Assembly (NCBI GenBank): GCA_046715765.1
Contig: JBKJYH010000143.1
Coordinates: forward strand, 4,584-68,583
Origin: Candidatus Limnocylindria bacterium
GTDB taxonomy: Bacteria > Chloroflexota > Limnocylindria > QHBO01
Length of the DNA stretch: 64,000 nucleotides
Direction of reading: 5' to 3'
How positions within the stretch are numbered: position 1 is the stretch's first letter; every line of letters starts with the position of its first letter. The notes under the pieces are model-generated. The model made no database searches, was not told the DNA's origin, and saw nothing but the letters and a program-made list of their open reading frames with translations. Both the position numbers and the translations under genes were made by a program. Below are positions 15,176-58,155 of this stretch, in pieces.

Positions 15176-17011
15176 ATGACATCAGGCATCGCCGCCGAGA
15201 TCAAGTCCAAGCTCCCCATCGTCGAAGTGATCGGCGAGAGCGTGCCGCTGCGGCGTGCCGGGACCGCTTACAAGGGTCTGTGCCCATTCCACAACGAGAA
15301 GACGCCCTCGTTCGTGGTCAGCCCTGATCGCGAGACATGGCATTGCTTCGGCTGCGGCGAGGGGGGCGACATCTTCACCTTCCTGATGCGTCGCGACGGG
15401 ATCGACTTCCGCGAGGCCCTGAGCCGGCTGGCCGAGAAGGCAGGGGTGGTGCTCTCGGAGCGGACTGCGACCGAGGATCGTCGCCGCAAGCGCCTGCGCG
15501 ATGCCCTGGAGGCTGCCATCGCGTGGTATCGCGAGGTCCTGCTCCAGGCACGCCTCGCCGAACCTGCGCGGGGCTATCTGACCGAACGCGGCCTGACCGC
15601 TGAGACGCTCGACTCCTTTAGCATCGGCTATGCGCCGGCAACCTACGACGCGCTGACCAGGCGGCTCATCGCCCGTGGCTTCAGCAACGACGACCTGGTC
15701 GGGGCGGGCCTCGCCTCGCCGTCCAACCGGGGGGGGGTGGTCGATCGCTTCCGTGGCCGGATCATCGTTCCGATTCGGGATGCCTCCGGGCGTGCCACCG
15801 GCCTCGGTGGCCGGATCATGCCCGGAGCCGACGGTCCGAAGTACCTCAACTCGCCGGCAGGGCCGCTCTTTGACAAGTCGCGCACCCTGTTCGGGATCGA
15901 CAAGGCCAAGAACGCCATTCGCAAGGAGAAGGTGGCGGTCATCGTCGAGGGTTACACCGATGTGATGGCCGCTCACCAGGCCGGCTTCGGCAACGTCGTC
16001 GCCAGCCTTGGCACCGCTCTGACCGCGGGACAGGTCGAGCTCGCCAACCGCTACGCCGACGCCGTGGCCCTTGCGTACGACGTTGATCTGGCCGGGGAGG
16101 CCGCCACCCAGCGTGGGCTGCTCGAGGAGCTCGGGCCCGATACGAGCGTCAGCAAGATCCGGGTGGTGCGGATCCCCGGCGCCAAGGACCCCGACGAGCT
16201 GATCCGCAGCGATCCGGAGGCATGGCGACGGGCTGTCGCCGATGCCAAGCCGGTGATCGAGTACTTCATTGACCGCGCTGTCGAAGATGTCGGCACCTCT
16301 TCGCTGGCCGCCAAGCGCGAACTGACCGGACGGGTGCTGGCGGTGATCAAGCGGGTGGGCGATCCGGTGGAGCGGGCGCTGTACATCCAGCGCCTCGCCC
16401 GGCTGGTGAGCGTCGAGGAGCGGGTGCTCAACGAGGCGCTCGGTCGTGAAACGCTGCGCCGGCCGGCCGCCTCGTTGCCGCCGCGACCCAATGCCGTGGG
16501 TGCGAGCAGTGCGGCGGTCGACCCGGTCGAGGGCGAGGCGCTGGGCCTGCTCCTGCGCTATCCGCGCCTGGTGAGTGAACTGCCGGATGAAAGTCTCCCG
16601 TTCGGGGACGCGACTGCCACCGCGCTGGTCGGCGAGTGGCGCCTCGCGGTGCAGGCAGCCGGCGAATCGTCCCTGCCGGACCTTGAGCGGTTTGTGGCCG
16701 GCCTCGATCCGGCGACCGCCGAGATGGCGCGCACGGTTCTGCACCGGCTGGCCGGGGCAGCTGACGCGCCGCGCCTAGAGGCCGAGCAGGCGACCAATGA
16801 ACTGCGGACCTGCCTGCTCCGGCTGCGAATAGCCCGGATCGACGAATCATTGCGAGACGGCCGCCTGCTGCTCGAGGAAGCACAGCGCGACCAGGATCAC
16901 GGCCGATTGCAGGCCCTCGAAACACAGATCACCGCGCTCGGCCGACGCAAGGCCGAGGCGACCCGCAAGTTGCGTGAGCCGGCCGAAGTGGCCGGTCCCG
17001 GAAGGAGTTGA
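15176..17011 (+). CDS. dnaG: DNA primase
   Basis: 611 aa with a zinc ribbon ([11 protein letters not shown]...HCFGCG), TOPRIM domain and a C-terminal helicase-binding region. Confidence 0.9.
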
Positions 17012-17013
17012 AC

Positions 17014-18795
<1,782 letters not shown>

Positions 18796-18845
18796 AACTC
18801 GCGGCTTGACCCGCCGAGGCGGCGGCCCATGATAGAGTTCCACCG

Positions 18846-20528
18846 GTGAGCGGACCGCGGGTCCTGAGAGTCGCCCTCGGAATGGCGACGTTCCTCGCTG
18901 CATGCGGAGGGAGCAACAGCAGCGCGCCCGCGGGCGCGCCTTCGATGGCGCCAGCGTACAACGAAGCATTTGTTGCGGAGTTGGTCGCCAACGGCGTGCC
19001 ACGGGACGACGCGGTCTTTCTGGCTTTGGCAAGCATCGCGGTGACGTCTGGCGGGGCCAAGAGCGTGCGGATCGTCGAGACCTTCCCGACCGGCAATACG
19101 GTGGACATGACGATCACGCTCGATCCGAATCGGCATCCCGAACCCGACACTCTCGAGGTCTCTTACTCGGAAACGGACGACGCCCTGGCGTTCACGCTGT
19201 CGTACTTCGTCCCCTTCACTGGCATGCCGGACGACGTCCGGCAGGAGATCGAAACTCTGGCTGCGTCGGGGGGTGCCATCCTCGCATTTAACGGGACCCG
19301 AATTCCTGGTCCGATGACGGCGGCGGTCGATGGGATCGGGGTCCTGGTCGACGGGATTGTCGGAAAGGCCCAATCGGACACAGTTGGGGCCGCGCTGGAC
19401 GCGCTCAAGGAGCGATTCGGCATCAACACGACGAAGCTGGGGCTAGCCGTAACGGCGGGGGAGGCCATTCAGGACAGCCTGGCGCTCAACGAGGAGTGGG
19501 CCGCTCTGGAGCGCCAGCTCGATGAACTGAAGCAGTGCGCAGAGAACCCGACCAACCCGCTCACCCAGAAGGCGTACGAGGAAAACCCGGGCATGAAGGA
19601 CAGGCTCGTCCAGGAGATCGAGAGCGCGAGGGCTGAGATCGCCAGGAACATGGTCGTGTCGCATATCGGCATCCTCAACGAGCTCGCCGCGGACGGAGGT
19701 CCCAAGTGGCTCGGCTGGGTCATCGCGCCTGGCACGAAATGGGCCAAGGAAACCCTGAACGATATCAACAGGGAGCGCCTCGAACAGCTGCGCAGGGGGA
19801 TACCAAAGTGTGGTGAACCCTGTCCGTACGGCTCGTCGGCCGGTTCAGGGGGGCAACCGGGCTCCGGCGAATCGTCGGGCGGCGGGGGCACGGGAGGCGG
19901 CGGATCAACGGAGGGGGTATGCGCCGTGCCGATTAGGCTGGTTGGCTCTGCCGACGCGGTCATCGTCAGCTTCGGCACCGTCATGGCGACCCTTCATGCG
20001 CGCGACGTGGTCTGGCAGGAGGACCCGGCGGCTCCGGGCTCGGGCACCTATCACGTCGTCAGCGGCACTCTGGACTGGTCGCTGCCGGGAACCTGGATGA
20101 CCACTTCGGGAGGAGGGGTCATTCCGGAGCAGACTTGCTCGTACGTGCCCAATTCCGGCAGCGAGTCCCTCGTTGCCGACGACCCGTATGGCAGCGGCGG
20201 AGTAGAGTCGGATGTCCCGTTCATGCCAGGTGAGAGCACCCTCCTGCACATCGCTTGGCGCGACCAGCCGGTCACCTATCTCGCCCAAAGTGTCATAGCC
20301 ATCCACACCCTGGTAAGAGAGGTATGCGGGGGGGTGCCCCGGGGGGCGGAGGTCAATCTGAACTTCTTGGGAAACCCGCGTTCGATGAGCACCTGGATTG
20401 CAACAGACGGGGCTAGCCGAGCACAGGTCTCCGTGTCGGGCGGGCTCTTGGTCGTCGAGGGCAAGTATTCGGAAACGCGCAGTAACGGCTCGGTCGAGTG
20501 GAGCTGGAACTTCACCGCTTCTCCGTGA
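18846..20528 (+). CDS. hypothetical lipoprotein, two domains joined by a Gly/Ser-rich linker
   Basis: 560 aa. Signal peptide with lipobox ([20 protein letters not shown]). Linker [30 protein letters not shown] recognise no family. GC content and codon usage are atypical for the window (uses ata, agg, aaa, ttt). Confidence 0.6.
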
Positions 20529-20556
20529 GTGCACCGGCACATGCCCTCTACTGGTC

Positions 20557-20571
20557 CTCCGCGGGAGGAGA
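20557..20571 (+). terminator. short perfect hairpin after the lipoprotein gene (TCCTCC-gcg-GGAGGA)
   Basis: 6-bp stem and 3-nt loop, 29 nt after the stop. There is no U-tract. Confidence 0.3.
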
Positions 20572-20937
20572 TGTAGCTCCGGCTAGATCTCAGCCATGCG
20601 ACGGGCGCCTACGGTGGACGGCGGCGATGATCCCTTGATCGGCGTTCTCCGCCATTATGAGGAACCGTGGAAGCTGTTCCGGGCATCCGCCGGCCCCGAA
20701 CGATGGGCCCCTGCCGCAGCCCACTCTCGCTTTGGTTTGGAACGCAATCATCTCTTTCTCTGGTCGCGAATCGTTCGGACCCTGCGTCCGTCGTACTCCG
20801 AGGCAGCGACCGTTGACTGATAACAGGCCCACCTGCTTTACTGCAGACAAAGGCAGTGGCCGGGGCGCCTGCCGTCGGTGGTCTTCACGCCACCGCTTCC
20901 TCGGATGCCTTTACAGCAAGAGGAGAGCCCCGTCGCC

Positions 20938-21351
20938 ATGATCGAGCAGTCTGAGCAAACCGAGCAGACGGTCGTCACATCGGAGCCCGTCGCCAGCGGG
21001 ATGCCCGCGGCATCCTCCACAGTCACCCGCCGGAGTACCACCCTGCGTCCGGGGGGCGCCGAACTCTGGCGCCGGATCGTGGTCCTGATCTTCGGGCTGG
21101 TCCAGGTCCTCATTGTCCTGCGCGTGGTGCTGTTGGTCCTGGATGCCCGCGAGGGGAACGCGCTGGTCTCCGGGATCCTCAACCTGAGCCAGATCTTCGT
21201 GGGACCCTTCGACGGCATCCTCCGTACCAACGCGCTCCAGTCCGGCGGGTCGATTCTTGACCTTGCGGCGATCGTGGCCCTGATCGGCTGGACCGTCCTG
21301 GAAATGGTGGTCCTGTGGTCCGTCGGCGTCTTCCGGCGCGAGCCCGCCTAG
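20938..21351 (+). CDS. YggT-family membrane protein with N-terminal extension
   Basis: ATG at 20938 is preceded by GAGGAGAG. The core RIVVLIFGLVQVLIVLRVVLLVL...NLSQIFVGPFDGIL resembles the YGGT repeat, and there are 2-3 TM helices. Confidence 0.55.
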   Translation: MIEQSEQTEQTVVTSEPVASGMPAASSTVTRRSTTLRPGGAELWRRIVVLIFGLVQVLIVLRVVLLVLDAREGNALVSGILNLSQIFVGPFDGILRTNALQSGGSILDLAAIVALIGWTVLEMVVLWSVGVFRREPA

Positions 21352-21454
21352 GTCTCGTTCCCACCCGGGCAGGGAGCCTTCCGCGGACGGGCTCGCAGTC
21401 CGCACCAACGCCGCGACCGATCGTCGGTCGACACCTTGAAAGGTACGAGTTGAC

Positions 21455-21721
21455 ATGGGTTTCATTTCGTGGATCGTGGTCGGCGCGATTGCCGGCTTCC
21501 TGGCCGGCAAGCTTGTCGGGAGCCGGGAAGGGCTGCTCATGATGATCGTGTACGGCATCGTCGGCGGGCTGGTCGGCGGCTACGTCGCCAGCAGTTTGCT
21601 GCACATCGGGTCCGTTGATGGGATCAACGTGGAGAGCATCCTGATCGCCACCCTGGGTGCCGCCGGCGTGCTGCTGGTGATGTCCAAGGTCAGAGGCTCG
21701 CGCGGCCCACTGGGAGGCTGA
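21455..21721 (+). CDS. GlsB/YeaQ/YmgE family stress-response membrane protein
   Basis: 88 aa. MGFISWIVVGAIAGFLAGKLV...IVYGIVGGLVGGYVAS is the transglycosylase-associated (GlsB) family signature. Confidence 0.75.
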   Translation: MGFISWIVVGAIAGFLAGKLVGSREGLLMMIVYGIVGGLVGGYVASSLLHIGSVDGINVESILIATLGAAGVLLVMSKVRGSRGPLGG

Positions 21722-21781
21722 CCCCGCGTCTGGATGAACCCTGAGCCACCCCGCACCTCGGGCTGAACCCGGTCCCGGGTC

Positions 21782-21787
21782 TATAAT
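21782..21787 (+). promoter_or_regulatory. TATAAT -10 hexamer about 42 nt upstream of tRNA-Asn
   Basis: A perfect TATAAT in about 70% GC DNA. The -35 (ctgaac) is weak. Confidence 0.35.
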
Positions 21788-21828
21788 CCGCGCCGTTCCC
21801 CGGCCGCCTCTCGCGGCCGGGCCGACGT

Positions 21829-21903
21829 TCCGGCGTAGCTCAGTGGTAGAGCGGGCGGCTGTTAACCGCTTGGTCGTAGGTTCGAGTCCTACCGCCGGAG
21901 CCA
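21829..21903 (+). tRNA. tRNA-Asn (anticodon GTT)
   Basis: Cloverleaf folded by hand: acceptor tccggcg/cgccgga, D arm gctc-agtggtaga-gagc, anticodon stem ggcgg/ccgct with loop cTGTTAa, T arm gtagg-ttcgagt-cctac, discriminator g, encoded CCA. Confidence 0.9.
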
Positions 21904-21969
21904 CCTTCGCTGCGCTCGGTGTCGTCAGGGCGCCGGGAACCGTGAGCGCCTCGGCCGCGTCGAGCGGGC

Positions 21970-23611: not shown

Positions 23612-24577
23612 TCAGGCCTCGCGCGTGACCCGCAGGATGGCGATCGCGTTCTCGAGTCGCAGCTTCGTGACGGTCAGGGTCCTCGCAAGGTTGTCCCGGT
23701 TCGTCTCCGGGATCTCGTCGATCAGGTCGCGCTGACTGATCAGCTCGACCAGTTCGTCCACCGCCTCGCTCAGCCGGGCCCGGGTGTTCACCAGCCGATC
23801 GTCGGCGACCTTGGCCGCCGCCACGATCCCGGCGCGGGTCCGGGCGCGACGCGGCGTCTTGGCGCCCCGGGCTTTCGGGGTGGCCGAGCCGGTGATCACG
23901 CGCAACTTGGCGAGGGTTAACTCCCCATCGGCTACCTTGCGTGCGAGGCGGCGGCGGGTCTTCTCATCGGTGATCCGCATCAGTTCGTACGCATGGCTCA
24001 GGGTGTCCTTGCGCACGGACACCAGGTCGCGGATCTCGGGCGGCGCATCGGCCAGGCGCAGCCGGTTCTCCACGTAGCCCTTGTCCTTGCCGATCTTGGT
24101 TGCGAGTTGGCGGACTGAGAACCCGAGTTCCGTCATCTTGCGGAACATGGCGGCCTCTTCGAGCGGGGTCACGTCCTCGCGCTGGAGATTCTCGATGATC
24201 GAAACCTCGAGCGCCGTCTCCTCGTCGAACTCGACGACGATGGCGGGGATCGACTCGCGCTCCGCCAGCCGTGATGCCCGCCAGCGACGCTCGCCTGCAA
24301 TCAACTCGTAGCTGTTGCCCACGGGGCGGACCAGGACAGGCTGGAGGACCCCGTGCTGCCGGATCGAATCGGCCAGTTCGGCGAGCGACTCCTCCTCGTA
24401 CGAGAGGCGAGGCTGGGCAGGGTTGGGCAGGATCCGATCGACCGGAACTTCTTTGATCTGGGCGTGGGTCGCACGCGACTCGATCAGCGACACCACGCCC
24501 GGTGCGAGGTCGACGTTCTTCGCCTCGTCAAAGAGTCGGTGGATGTTCTCCCGAAATGCGGGACGCTTGCTAGCCAA
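23612..24577 (-). CDS. parB: chromosome partitioning protein ParB/Spo0J
   Basis: 321 aa. ParB box GERRWRA, HTH, and a C-terminal dimerisation region. Confidence 0.9.
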   Translation of the reverse strand: MASKRPAFRENIHRLFDEAKNVDLAPGVVSLIESRATHAQIKEVPVDRILPNPAQPRLSYEEESLAELADSIRQHGVLQPVLVRPVGNSYELIAGERRWRASRLAERESIPAIVVEFDEETALEVSIIENLQREDVTPLEEAAMFRKMTELGFSVRQLATKIGKDKGYVENRLRLADAPPEIRDLVSVRKDTLSHAYELMRITDEKTRRRLARKVADGELTLAKLRVITGSATPKARGAKTPRRARTRAGIVAAAKVADDRLVNTRARLSEAVDELVELISQRDLIDEIPETNRDNLARTLTVTKLRLENAIAILRVTREA

Positions 24578-25337
24578 GGTCGATCACCTCTCTGGCCAAG
24601 TCGCGGAACGCGCGCGCCGCCGCGGAATTGGTCGCGTAATCGGTGATGGGTTTGCCGGTGAGTGGCGCCTCACCGAACTTCACCGTGTTCTTGATCATGG
24701 TCGAGAAAACCCGATGGTCACCCAGCTCCCGAAGGTTCTGCAACATCTCGCGCGCCAGCACGGTTCGCCCGTCATAGAAGGTCGCCAGCAGGCCGAGGAT
24801 CTCGAGGTCGTGGTTGAGCTTGAGCCGAATCGTGTTTATCACCTTGATCAACGCGGTCAGGCCCTTGATGGCGTAGTACTGGGTCTGGACCGGGATGATC
24901 ACCCGCGAGGAGGCCACCAGGCCGTTGATCGTGAGCAGCCCGAGGGTCGGGGGGCAGTCGATGATTATCACGTCGAACTGGCGATCCGCCCAGCCAGAGA
25001 GCGCGTCACGCAACACCATCTCGCGACCGATGGCGCTGAACAGCTCCACCTCGGTCGAGGCCAGCTCCAGGGTCGCCGGTGCCACTGACAGGCCGGCGGT
25101 CTGCGTCGGCCGGACGATCTCCTCCACTGGAAGCCGATCGTCGCCGATCACGTCCGCCATCGATTGATTCACGTCCGACAGCGAAACGCCGAGGCCGACG
25201 GTGAGGTTGGCCTGTGGATCGATGTCCACGCACAGCACGCGGTAGCCGAGTTCGGCCAATGCGCCGCCGAGGTTGATGGCCGTGGTCGTCTTCCCGACGC
25301 CGCCCTTCTGATTTGCGATGGCAATGACCTTGCTCAC
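24570..25337 (-). CDS. parA: chromosome partitioning ATPase ParA/Soj
   Basis: Deviant Walker A KGGVGKTT. The GTG at 25337 gives MSKVIAIANQKGG. The ORF-track start at 25451 is an upstream extension. Confidence 0.9.
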   Translation of the reverse strand: MSKVIAIANQKGGVGKTTTAINLGGALAELGYRVLCVDIDPQANLTVGLGVSLSDVNQSMADVIGDDRLPVEEIVRPTQTAGLSVAPATLELASTEVELFSAIGREMVLRDALSGWADRQFDVIIIDCPPTLGLLTINGLVASSRVIIPVQTQYYAIKGLTALIKVINTIRLKLNHDLEILGLLATFYDGRTVLAREMLQNLRELGDHRVFSTMIKNTVKFGEAPLTGKPITDYATNSAAARAFRDLAREVIDLG

Positions 25338-25429
25338 GGACGAACCCTTTGCGCTGGGCGGGATTGGGGGAGTGCGCGGATGCGCTCCAGCTGATGATAC
25401 CGGCGCGCGAGGTCGGCCGATGCCCAGAG

Positions 25430-25438
25430 TTATCCACA
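25430..25438 (+). promoter_or_regulatory. perfect DnaA box TTATCCACA in the parA / tRNA-Met divergent spacer
   Basis: Exact 9/9 match to the consensus DnaA box. It is a single copy. Confidence 0.4.
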
Positions 25439-25505
25439 AGGTCGTCGGCACGACGCGTCTGTGTGCAAAGACGAGGCCCTATACTCGGACTTGTCCACCA
25501 TCATC

Positions 25506-58048: not shown

Positions 58049-58125
<77 letters not shown>

Positions 58126-58155
58126 CCCATCCCGCACCGGCGCAACTGACGACCA

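What the first reader, a model, noticed from the sequence alone, without database searches (positions are those of the whole stretch)
18796..20940. Compositionally atypical block: 560-aa orphan lipoprotein and a 410-bp structured spacer directly downstream of rpoD
This 1.7-kb gene is about 62-65% GC, against about 70% for its flanks, from hand counts of several 60-nt blocks. It uses codons that the flanking genes almost never use (ata, agg, aaa, ttt, gga). It encodes a lipobox signal peptide and two domains of roughly 300 and 190 aa, separated by a [29 protein letters not shown] linker, with several conserved-looking Cys residues. I recognise no family. Downstream lie 410 non-coding bp containing at least three perfect hairpins. 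This looks like a horizontally acquired surface or secreted protein inserted between rpoD and a block of membrane-protein genes.
Basis: partly seen in the sequence, partly recalled or inferred. Interest (0 to 1): 0.55.

Follow-up and report, generated by a model that had tools for sequence, protein, structure and literature searches.

The report
Acquired mosaic lipoprotein gene after rpoD
The gene after rpoD encodes a membrane-anchored surface protein of an undescribed but widespread family; it looks imported from another lineage and pieced together from two exchangeable parts, and the "structured spacer" behind it is two ordinary flanking regions with an unmatched stretch between them.

Summary
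The ORF 18846-20528 is real and encodes a 560-aa lipoprotein precursor. It has a lipobox Cys20, a ~290-aa N-domain, a Gly/Ser linker and a ~200-aa all-beta C-domain.

It is the clearest compositional outlier in the window. GC is 64.5% against 69.4%, GC3 is 0.79 against 0.87, and the codon-usage z-score is -8.8 where the next gene scores -3.6.

It is not an orphan. The N-domain, with its invariant CAxxPTNxLT motif and a second invariant Cys, occurs in 38 species-level genomes. By record title these span Chloroflexota, Actinomycetota, Acidobacteriota, Luteimonas and Nitrososphaera. No Pfam, NCBIfam or PDB match exists.

The gene is a mosaic. The N part is 71% nt-identical to one metagenomic gene. 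The C part plus 135 nt of 3' flank is 77-87% identical to a different lipoprotein with a DUF6055-like N part.

Homologues sit at unrelated loci. No mobile-element hallmarks flank the gene.

The 409-bp spacer is non-coding, and its hairpins are at chance level. It breaks down into the conserved 3' flank of the C-domain cassette, an unmatched middle, and a conserved promoter plus 62-nt leader of the downstream yggT-like gene.

Function is unknown. The most likely role is a non-enzymatic envelope binding or sensing protein.

The parts
18806..18833 (+). Promoter-like site (TTGACC, 16 nt, CATGAT) in the 50-nt gap between the rpoD stop and the gene start
   Evidence: This is the only sigma-70-like match in 18700-21100, where shuffles give 0.3. 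It is a consensus match only; function is inferred.
18846..20528 (+). Lipoprotein gene, 560 aa, GTG start
   Evidence: ORF. The coding pattern is GC3 0.79 > GC1 0.63 > GC2 0.52. Homologues were found. It is the codon outlier of the window.
18846..18905 (+). Signal peptide [20 protein letters not shown] with lipobox L-A-A-C (Cys20 codon 18903-18905)
   Evidence: Read directly from the sequence. It aligns with the signal peptides of P0003 and P0004. The alternative ATG at 18882 leaves too short a signal.
18954..19811 (+). Conserved N-domain (aa 37-322), the family-defining module
19536..19565 (+). Invariant motif [10 protein letters not shown] (Cys231); the second invariant Cys322 is at 19809-19811
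   Evidence: These are invariant columns in 28 sequences from five phyla and in 24 sequences. No invariant His, Asp, Glu or Ser is present.
19830..19916 (+). Gly/Ser-rich linker (aa 329-357), bracketed by Cys326 and Cys359
   Evidence: A comparable linker with flanking Cys residues occurs in P0005, P0006, P0008 and P0009.
19920..20525 (+). C-domain (aa 359-560), all-beta and barrel-like, with conserved Cys431 and Cys494
19941..20663 (+). DNA block shared with L043, the gene for P0007 (DUF6055-like N part plus the same C-domain): the C-domain cassette with its 3' flank
   Evidence: 77.5% identity over 683 nt, running 87 nt past the stop, then 87% over 47 nt after a 43-nt indel. For the C-domain, dN/dS is 0.58 and pS is 0.29.
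20529..20663 (+). Conserved 3' flank of the C-domain cassette; it contains an imperfect hairpin at 20548-20576 with no U-tract
   Evidence: 85-87% identical to L043 downstream DNA, which makes it more conserved than synonymous sites of the adjoining coding region. Hairpin. Not coding: the 43-nt indel breaks all frames.
20664..20809 (.). Middle of the spacer: no match to anything held, and no coding signal
20813..20842 (+). Promoter-like boxes of the yggT-like gene (-35 TTGACT at 20813-20818, -10 TTTACT at 20837-20842)
   Evidence: These positions align with TTGACA, 17-18 nt, TACAAT in relatives L045, L050, L051, L055 and L057. The role is inferred.
20851..20912 (+). Conserved 62-nt 5' leader motif (core CAGTGGCCGGNGCG) of the yggT-like gene
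   Evidence: 78-81% identical in relatives whose proteins are only 50-67% identical. Covariance model R1 scores 71.5 bits here and 48-87 bits in 8 other places. Three pairs show compensatory changes. No Rfam family matches.
20938..21351 (+). Downstream yggT-like membrane protein gene. It is native context and not part of the atypical block
   Evidence: Pfam YGGT at 25.7 bits, just under the cut-off. GC3 is 0.88 and codon z is -0.5. Relatives were found.

Best explanation
This is a horizontally acquired, recombinationally assembled gene for a membrane-tethered extracytoplasmic protein of an uncharacterised family.

The precursor is exported and lipid-modified at Cys20 (inferred from the lipobox), so the rest of the protein sits on the outer face of the cytoplasmic membrane.

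The conserved N-domain is a beta-sheet subdomain plus a long helical bundle. It is probably stapled by the invariant Cys231-Cys322 pair, with the invariant [10 protein letters not shown] loop at one end. I read it as the constant module, either a stalk or a partner-binding unit.

A Gly/Ser segment bracketed by Cys326 and Cys359 connects it to an exchangeable all-beta, barrel-like C-domain (Cys431/Cys494). I read that domain as a ligand-binding head.

The protein is most likely a non-enzymatic envelope binding or sensing protein.

The 409-bp spacer is not one element. It consists of the conserved 3' flank that travels with the C-domain cassette, an unmatched middle, and the native promoter plus conserved leader of the yggT-like gene.

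Shown here: composition outlier, domain architecture, family distribution, mosaic DNA homology, spacer dissection.

Inferred: lipidation, disulfides, binding role, direction and timing of transfer.
For: Composition and origin
- Codon z is -8.8 and GC3 z is -6.0. Tetranucleotide distance is in the top 1%.
- It is the only window gene better fitted by codon usage of L042/L043 non-homologous genes: +0.046 per codon, against -0.018 to -0.125 for the 33 others.
- Those contigs have GC of 63.5-64.6%, matching the gene's 64.5%.

Mosaic structure
- The N part matches L042 at 70.8% nt. The C part plus 3' flank matches L043 at 77-87% nt, and the homology starts exactly at the domain boundary.
- The same C-domain occurs on a DUF6055-like lipoprotein (P0007), on a 661-aa lipoprotein with another N part (P0036), and alone on a 272-aa lipoprotein (P0037).
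- The N-domain carries at least three unrelated C-domain types.

Extracytoplasmic location
- Chloroflexota and Actinomycetota members carry a lipobox. Acidobacteriota and Nitrososphaera members carry an N-terminal TM helix.
- The number of conserved Cys residues is even.

Not an enzyme
- The invariant residues are only Cys, Ala, Pro, Asn, Leu and Thr.
- There is no Pfam, NCBIfam, PADLOC, PHROGs or PDB sequence hit.

Folds
-.

Variable loci of homologues
-.

Spacer dissection
-.
Against: - No close relative of the host genome was available. An empty rpoD/yggT junction was therefore never seen, and the transfer is inferred from composition and mosaicism only.
- Low GC3 also tracks low expression in this window: rpoD scores +2.6, and several poorly adapted genes score -3 to -3.6.
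- No integrase, flanking direct repeats or adjacent tRNA are present.
- The AF2 models are of moderate confidence (pLDDT 73 and 77). The C-domain model rests on a 5-sequence alignment.
- The taxa of L042 and L043 are unknown. They could belong to the same lineage as the window.
Confidence: 0.6

Rival explanations
1. The gene is native and vertically inherited. It is simply weakly expressed, so its low GC3 and rare codons reflect relaxed codon selection rather than foreign origin.
For: Codon adaptation in the window follows an expression-like gradient. rpoD and other housekeeping genes score z +2 to +3. Several other genes have GC3 of 0.79-0.81 and z of -3 to -3.6. No mobile-element hallmarks are present.
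Against: The gene is 2.4 times further out than the next gene (-8.8 against -3.6). It is also a strand-symmetric tetranucleotide outlier. Its usage fits the L042/L043 contigs better than its own genome, which is unique among 34 genes. Homologues sit at unrelated loci. The family distribution across phyla is patchy.
Confidence: 0.2
2. It is an envelope component of a kinase-dependent ECF sigma signalling module, either as a target gene or as an extracytoplasmic partner of the kinase's periplasmic TPR domain. That is what the context of family members in Acidobacteriota and Luteimonas suggests.
For: In 11 Acidobacteriota loci and in Luteimonas L024, the family gene lies next to an ECF sigma (PF07638) and a Ser/Thr kinase with TPR repeats. 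L024 carries it as tandem paralogues. Gene order varies between these loci, but the linkage is kept. Kinase-activated ECF sigmas whose kinases have periplasmic TPR domains are an established system: PknS/EcfK (PMC13147305) and the ECF43 and ECF59-62 groups (PMC7826278).
Against: The 64-kb window has no ECF sigma and no Ser/Thr kinase. The Chloroflexota, Actinomycetota and Nitrososphaera loci have none nearby either. The Acidobacteriota loci may share the arrangement by descent. Adjacency to the primary sigma gene rpoD here has no counterpart elsewhere.
Confidence: 0.12
3. It is a polymorphic toxin or effector: a conserved N-terminal delivery domain with a variable C-terminal toxin, and an immunity gene hidden in the 'spacer'.
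For: A conserved N-domain combined with at least three unrelated C-terminal domain types, and cassette-like exchange of the C-domain together with its downstream DNA.
Against: No frame in the spacer looks coding (GC3 0.57-0.69), and the 43-nt indel against L043 breaks every frame. There are no toxin, immunity, PADLOC or PHROGs hits. The C-domain is a Cys-stabilised beta barrel without conserved catalytic residues. The proteins are lipid- or TM-anchored, which does not suit a delivered toxin.
Confidence: 0.04
4. The spacer encodes a structured regulatory RNA (riboswitch or sRNA) that belongs to the lipoprotein gene.
For: Plus-strand fold z is -2.65, against -0.33 for the minus strand. Both ends of the spacer are more conserved than neutral expectation. 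The leader motif shows a few compensatory pairs.
Against: Hairpin count and fold energy lie within the range of shuffles and control windows. There is no Rfam hit at E<=1. The conserved 3'-proximal motif belongs to the yggT-like gene, not to the lipoprotein gene. It recurs upstream of yggT-like operons and of one secreted-protein gene in relatives that lack the lipoprotein. Covariation rests on about 5 distinct sequences.
Confidence: 0.1

Closest known systems
Bacterial lipoproteins with a Gly/Ser tether and a C-terminal beta-barrel head (TbpB, NHBA, fHbp and Slam-dependent surface lipoproteins of Neisseria and Pasteurella)
P0007 (757 aa; weak DUF6055 / HExxH putative metallopeptidase N part), P0036 and P0037: other lipoproteins carrying the same C-domain
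   Same: The C-domain is 69% identical at the amino-acid level and 77% at the nucleotide level, and 135 nt of the 3' flank is 85-87% identical. All have a lipobox.
   Different: The N-terminal parts are unrelated. The DUF6055 hit is below Pfam's threshold (24.4 against 27 bits).
Kinase-activated ECF sigma modules (ECF43-type EcfK/PknS of Xanthomonas citri; EcfP/PknT of Vibrio)
   Same: Family members in Acidobacteriota and Luteimonas lie next to an ECF sigma and a Hanks-type kinase with TPR repeats. This is the architecture described in PMC13147305 and PMC7826278.
   Different: No such genes occur in this window. The ECF group of the acidobacterial sigmas was not determined. No published link to this protein family was found.
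Mosaic or modular surface-protein genes diversified by cassette recombination
   Same: A constant module with interchangeable C-terminal modules, with the homology breakpoint at the domain boundary, and non-coding flank co-transferred.
   Different: There are no repeated silent cassettes, no recombinase, no inverted repeats, and no second copy in the window.

Membership tests
Bacterial lipoprotein (Lgt/LspA substrate) | Signal peptide with a positively charged n-region, a hydrophobic h-region and a lipobox [LVI][ASTVI][GAS]C | tested here: met
   [20 protein letters not shown] has R5 and R8, an 11-residue h-region, and L-A-A-C with Cys20. Lipoboxes are also present in the Chloroflexota and Actinomycetota homologues.
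Bacterial lipoprotein (Lgt/LspA substrate) | Actual diacylglyceryl modification and signal peptidase II cleavage | not testable with these tools
   This needs globomycin sensitivity, lipid labelling or mass spectrometry.
Any curated protein family (Pfam-A, NCBIfam, PADLOC, PHROGs) or solved structure by sequence | A profile match above threshold | tested here: not met
   No hits for the protein, for either half, or for 28 family members.
TbpB/NHBA/Slam-dependent surface lipoprotein class | Eight-stranded barrel with an adjoining handle domain, showing specific structural similarity | tested here: inconclusive
TbpB/NHBA/Slam-dependent surface lipoprotein class | A dedicated Slam outer-membrane translocon encoded nearby | not tested
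   Neighbours are dnaG, rpoD, a yggT-like gene, tRNA-Asn and parAB. No systematic search for Slam was made.
Genomic island or integrated mobile element | Integrase or transposase, flanking direct repeats, or insertion next to a tRNA gene | tested here: not met
   No flanking repeats of 11 nt or more bracket the block. The nearest tRNA (Asn, 21829-21903) is separated from it by two native genes. No recombinase is among the neighbours.
Genomic island or integrated mobile element | Composition deviating from the host | tested here: met
Polymorphic toxin system | A C-terminal toxin domain with conserved catalytic residues, followed by an immunity gene | tested here: not met
   There are no toxin-domain hits. 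The spacer has no coding frame, and its homology with L043 is interrupted by a 43-nt indel.
Kinase-dependent ECF sigma module (ECF43-like) accessory gene | Co-location with an ECF sigma and a Hanks-type kinase | tested here: not met
   Neither gene is in the 64-kb window. The feature is met only for 11 Acidobacteriota loci and Luteimonas L024.
Rfam RNA family or intrinsic terminator in the spacer | A covariance-model match, or a GC-rich hairpin followed by a U-tract | tested here: not met
   No Rfam match at E<=1. No terminator-like site.

The most novel reading that the evidence does not exclude
The N-domain family may be the so-far-unnoticed extracytoplasmic partner or output of kinase-activated ECF sigma modules, spread by transfer across at least five phyla including ammonia-oxidising archaea. 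Its C-terminal barrels, together with a constrained 3' non-coding element, may be exchanged between unrelated lipoproteins as a mobile 'head' cassette. That would amount to a modular system for diversifying what the cell envelope binds.
Probability: 0.1. Interest if true: 0.65.

Novelty: new variant of a known kind. Interest (0 to 1): 0.38.

Why it matters
The finding identifies a protein family with no Pfam or NCBIfam model. The family is anchored on the cell surface in soil bacteria of several phyla and, by record title, in Nitrososphaera. It has an invariant CAxxPTNxLT/Cys signature and a fold without a specific match in the PDB.

It also gives a clean small example of how such genes are built. 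The N- and C-modules have different nearest relatives. The C-module moved together with its downstream non-coding DNA.

If the linkage to kinase-dependent ECF sigma modules seen in Acidobacteriota and Luteimonas is functional, the family could help explain what those kinases sense.

For this window specifically, the result is modest. It is a probable horizontally acquired surface lipoprotein of unknown ligand, and the 'structured spacer' is explained away.

Tried and rejected
- Profile search with the full-length 28-sequence alignment. It returned only 3 proteins. I did not check why; a plausible cause is that linker and signal-peptide words took up the candidate list. It was repeated with the N-domain only.
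- Exact-sequence look-ups of P0001 and the yggT-like protein found nothing, and RpoD was not in the protein-cluster collection. Strain-level comparison was therefore impossible.
- The listing of cluster members gave no organism names, so the host taxon remains unknown.
- The acidobacterial upstream neighbour (617 aa) was tested as a paralogue and rejected. hhalign probability was 0.2% and BLASTP found nothing.
- Neighbours of the Actinomycetota, Chloroflexota and Nitrososphaera members showed no conserved partner.
- A search for a small conserved ORF or immunity gene in the spacer was negative.
- A search for flanking repeats and tRNA-linked integration was negative.
- The first RNAalifold run on the leader used mis-set coordinates and was uninformative.
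Full report
OBSERVATION

The window is 69.4% GC. Pfam identifies dnaG at 15176-17011 and rpoD at 17008-18795, the latter with regions 1.1, 1.2, 2, 3 and 4. Fifty nucleotides after the rpoD stop, an ORF runs from GTG 18846 to 20528 and encodes 560 aa.

Its composition is atypical:
- GC is 0.645 (z = -2.1 against ~41 ORFs).
- GC3 is 0.789, the lowest in the window, although five other ORFs lie at 0.79-0.81.

I then resampled synonymous codons from the usage of the other genes, holding each protein sequence fixed. Under that test the gene stands alone. It scores z = -8.8 on log-likelihood and -6.0 on GC3, and the next gene scores -3.6. A strand-symmetric tetranucleotide distance at least as large as its own is reached only by windows lying on this gene, which puts it in the top 1%.

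Both domains are equally low in GC (0.640 each). The G-rich linker is higher at 0.739.

THE PROTEIN

With the GTG start, the N-terminus is [20 protein letters not shown]. It has two Arg residues, an 11-residue hydrophobic core and the lipobox L-A-A-C (Cys20). It aligns with the signal peptides of the closest homologues.

The deposited 548-aa version (P0001) starts at ATG 18882. That would leave only seven residues before the Cys, so it is probably mis-started.

A promoter-like TTGACC-16-CATGAT lies at 18806-18833. It is the only such match in the region.

The remaining layout is:
- N-domain, about aa 37-322.
- The segment CGEPC, then the linker [29 protein letters not shown] (aa 329-357).
- C-domain, aa 359-560.
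- Six Cys besides the lipobox Cys, at positions 231, 322, 326, 359, 431 and 494.

NOT AN ORPHAN

There is no Pfam, NCBIfam, PADLOC, PHROGs or PDB-sequence hit for the protein, for its halves, or for 28 family members. Homologues nevertheless exist.

The first search gave 10 proteins. An N-domain profile gave 29, all but P0035 (E = 2.5e-16) scoring E <= 7e-36.

A scan of one genome per species found 38 loci. By record title these are:
- 7 Chloroflexota
- 9 Actinomycetota, including the isolate Nocardioides rubriscoriae
- 19 Acidobacteriota
- 1 Luteimonas
- 2 Nitrososphaera

Across 28 aligned sequences the invariant columns are only C-A-x-x-P-(T)-N-x-L-T (Cys231 here) and a second Cys (Cys322) at the domain end. 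There is no invariant His, Asp, Glu or Ser. That argues against a hydrolase-type active site.

Chloroflexota and Actinomycetota members have lipoboxes. Acidobacteriota and Nitrososphaera members have an N-terminal TM helix. The body of the protein is therefore extracytoplasmic throughout the family.

FOLDS

AlphaFold2 on the N-domain used 32 sequences and gave pLDDT 73 and pTM 0.63. It predicts two short helices, a five-to-six-stranded sheet with helices, and then long helices 179-197, 213-248 and 251-282 in model numbering. The invariant motif sits in the turn after the first long helix, and the second Cys sits just after the last helix.

MOSAIC ORIGIN

The N-domain occurs with at least three unrelated C-terminal regions.

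The C-domain is very rare, with five hits among 1.84 billion representatives. It occurs on otherwise different lipoproteins:
- P0007, with a weak DUF6055/HExxH N part.
- P0036, 661 aa, with another N part.
- P0037, 272 aa, with the C-domain alone.

At the DNA level, window 18852-19782 matches L042 (the P0002 gene) at 70.8%. Window 19941-20614 matches L043 (the P0007 gene) at 77.5%. The L043 match starts exactly at the C-domain boundary (VGSAD...) and runs 87 nt beyond the stop codon. After a 43-nt indel, 20617-20663 matches at 87%.

For the C-domain, pS is 0.29, dS is 0.365 and dN/dS is 0.58. The 3' flank is only 13-15% divergent, so it is more conserved than the adjoining synonymous sites.

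The contigs carrying these nearest relatives have 63.5% and 64.6% GC, like the gene at 64.5% and unlike the window. I built a reference from non-homologous coding sequence on those two contigs (GC3 0.782). The target is the only one of 34 window genes whose synonymous usage fits that reference better than the window's own: +0.046 per codon, against -0.018 to -0.125 for the others.

POSITION

Homologues lie at unrelated loci:
- After der-gpsA (P0006 and P0009).
- Between pgi and rpiB (P0005).
- In other contexts (P0002).
- Beside unrelated metabolic genes in Actinomycetota, Chloroflexota and Nitrososphaera.

No flanking direct repeats, integrase or adjacent tRNA mark the block.

I could not obtain close relatives of the host. 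The yggT-like neighbour has metagenomic relatives at 50-67% identity. They keep the convergent downstream gene but have neither rpoD nor the lipoprotein upstream. The insertion therefore cannot be polarised by synteny.

THE SPACER

The spacer 20529-20937 is 409 bp and has no coding frame. Frame GC3 is 0.57-0.69, and the ORFs listed are compositionally non-coding.

Evidence against a single structured element:
- Rfam finds nothing at E <= 1.
- There is no terminator-like site with a U-tract.
- Eight distinct perfect 5-6 bp hairpins are present, against 5.3 +/- 2.75 in shuffles (P = 0.07).
- Fold z is -2.65 with dinucleotide shuffles and -1.9 with mononucleotide shuffles.
- Sub-regions score -0.7 to -1.4, and control windows reach -2.6.

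The spacer resolves into three parts.
(a) 20529-20663 is the conserved 3' flank shared with L043. It includes the imperfect hairpin at 20548-20576.
(b) 20664-20809 has no match to anything held.
(c) 20810-20937 holds -35 and -10-like boxes and a 62-nt leader at 20851-20912.

The leader is 78-81% identical in relatives whose YggT-like proteins are only 50-67% identical. Covariance model R1 finds it at 48-87 bits in these places:
- Upstream of the yggT-like gene in L045, L050, L051, L055 and L057.
- Upstream of a small ORF plus yggT in L044 and L047.
- Upstream of a secreted DUF3494-like protein gene in L051.

RNAalifold proposes three short hairpins. Three pairs show compensatory changes, but only about five distinct sequences are available. 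The element belongs to the yggT-like gene and not to the lipoprotein gene.

CONTEXT OF THE WIDER FAMILY

In 11 Acidobacteriota loci and in Luteimonas L024, the family gene lies beside an ECF sigma (PF07638) and a Ser/Thr kinase with TPR repeats.
- In Acidobacteriota, an unrelated 560-617-aa protein accompanies them.
- In Luteimonas, the family gene is present as tandem paralogues at 34% identity.
- Gene order differs between these loci, but the linkage persists.

Kinase-activated ECF sigmas with periplasmic TPR kinases are established. Examples are EcfK/PknS (PMC13147305) and the group overview in PMC7826278.

The window contains no such genes and no paralogue. This is a lead for the family and not an explanation for this copy. 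Its adjacency to the primary sigma gene rpoD appears coincidental.

INTERPRETATION

The best-supported reading is a horizontally acquired, recombinationally assembled gene for a lipid-anchored extracytoplasmic protein. The constant N-module serves as a stalk or partner-binding unit, and the exchangeable barrel serves as a binding head. Function is inferred from architecture only.

Rivals are:
- A native but poorly expressed gene.
- An ECF/kinase-linked envelope component.
- A polymorphic toxin.
- A spacer RNA element belonging to the lipoprotein gene.

VERDICT

The 'orphan' label and the 'structured spacer' do not. Interest is moderate. The family is undescribed and unusually widely but patchily distributed, and the cassette exchange is clean. 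No function or mechanism is demonstrated.

Noticed in passing
window 20851-20912 (also L044:355-415, L045:589-648, L047:177-240, L050:1102-1163, L051:24-86 and 1461-1522, L055:7902-7964, L057:948-1009): A 62-nt conserved 5' leader motif (core CAGTGGCCGGNGCG ... CGCTTCCCCGGATGCC) sits downstream of a TTGACA/TACAAT-like promoter. It is found before yggT-like genes, before a small-ORF plus yggT operon, and before one secreted DUF3494-like protein gene. It is not in Rfam. A few compensatory pairs are seen, but there are too few sequences for a covariation test.
   Followed up: partly
L009:4480-11425, L010, L012, L015, L017, L018, L031, L035-L038; L024:9776-16663: Members of the N-domain family in Acidobacteriota and in a Luteimonas MAG lie next to an ECF sigma (PF07638) and a Ser/Thr kinase with TPR repeats. 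Gene order varies. In Acidobacteriota a second conserved 560-617-aa protein of unknown family is also present (one copy gives a weak DUF4412 hit).
   Followed up: partly
window 18846 vs 18882: The deposited product (P0001, 548 aa) starts at ATG 18882, only 7 residues before the lipobox Cys. The GTG at 18846 gives a proper signal peptide that aligns with homologues, so the database start is probably 12 codons short.
   Followed up: yes
window 19821-19922: The Gly/Ser linker is bracketed by Cys326 (C-x-x-x-C after the N-domain) and Cys359 (C-x-x-P before the C-domain). P0005, P0006, P0008 and P0009 show the same bracketing. The 'linker' could therefore be a disulfide-closed loop rather than a free tether.
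   Followed up: no
window 21179-21904 (-) and 21829-21903 (+): A convergent gene downstream of the yggT-like gene is conserved in relatives (38-48% identity in L044, L046, L048, L050, L051, L055) and has no Pfam hit. The longest ORF overlaps tRNA-Asn (21829-21903), so its real start must lie further in.
   Followed up: partly
window 23700-25500: The parB/parA region is the only other stretch of the window as low in GC (62-65%) as the lipoprotein gene. parA has codon z of -3.3 and is the window gene closest to the L042/L043-like usage (-0.018).
   Followed up: no
L045, L050, L051, L055, L057, L048: about 20-45 nt upstream of the -35 box: A direct repeat CTACAGTTGA ... CTACAGTTGAC overlaps the -35 box of the yggT promoter in relatives and looks operator-like. 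The window copy has only one diverged unit (CGACCGTTGACT).
   Followed up: no
L043:1-31 and 341-2614: The gene for P0007 (DUF6055-like N part plus the shared C-domain) begins about 310 nt downstream of the 3' end of a tRNA-Val gene. That tRNA end is 93.5% identical to window 58096-58126.
   Followed up: no
L027:5744-7363 and L032:7094-8707: Two contigs titled Nitrososphaera (GC 0.45-0.50) encode family members with the full CANNPTNPLT motif and a TM anchor. They are flanked by very large ORFs (700-1000 aa) without any Pfam hit. The archaeal assignment rests on the record titles only.
   Followed up: partly
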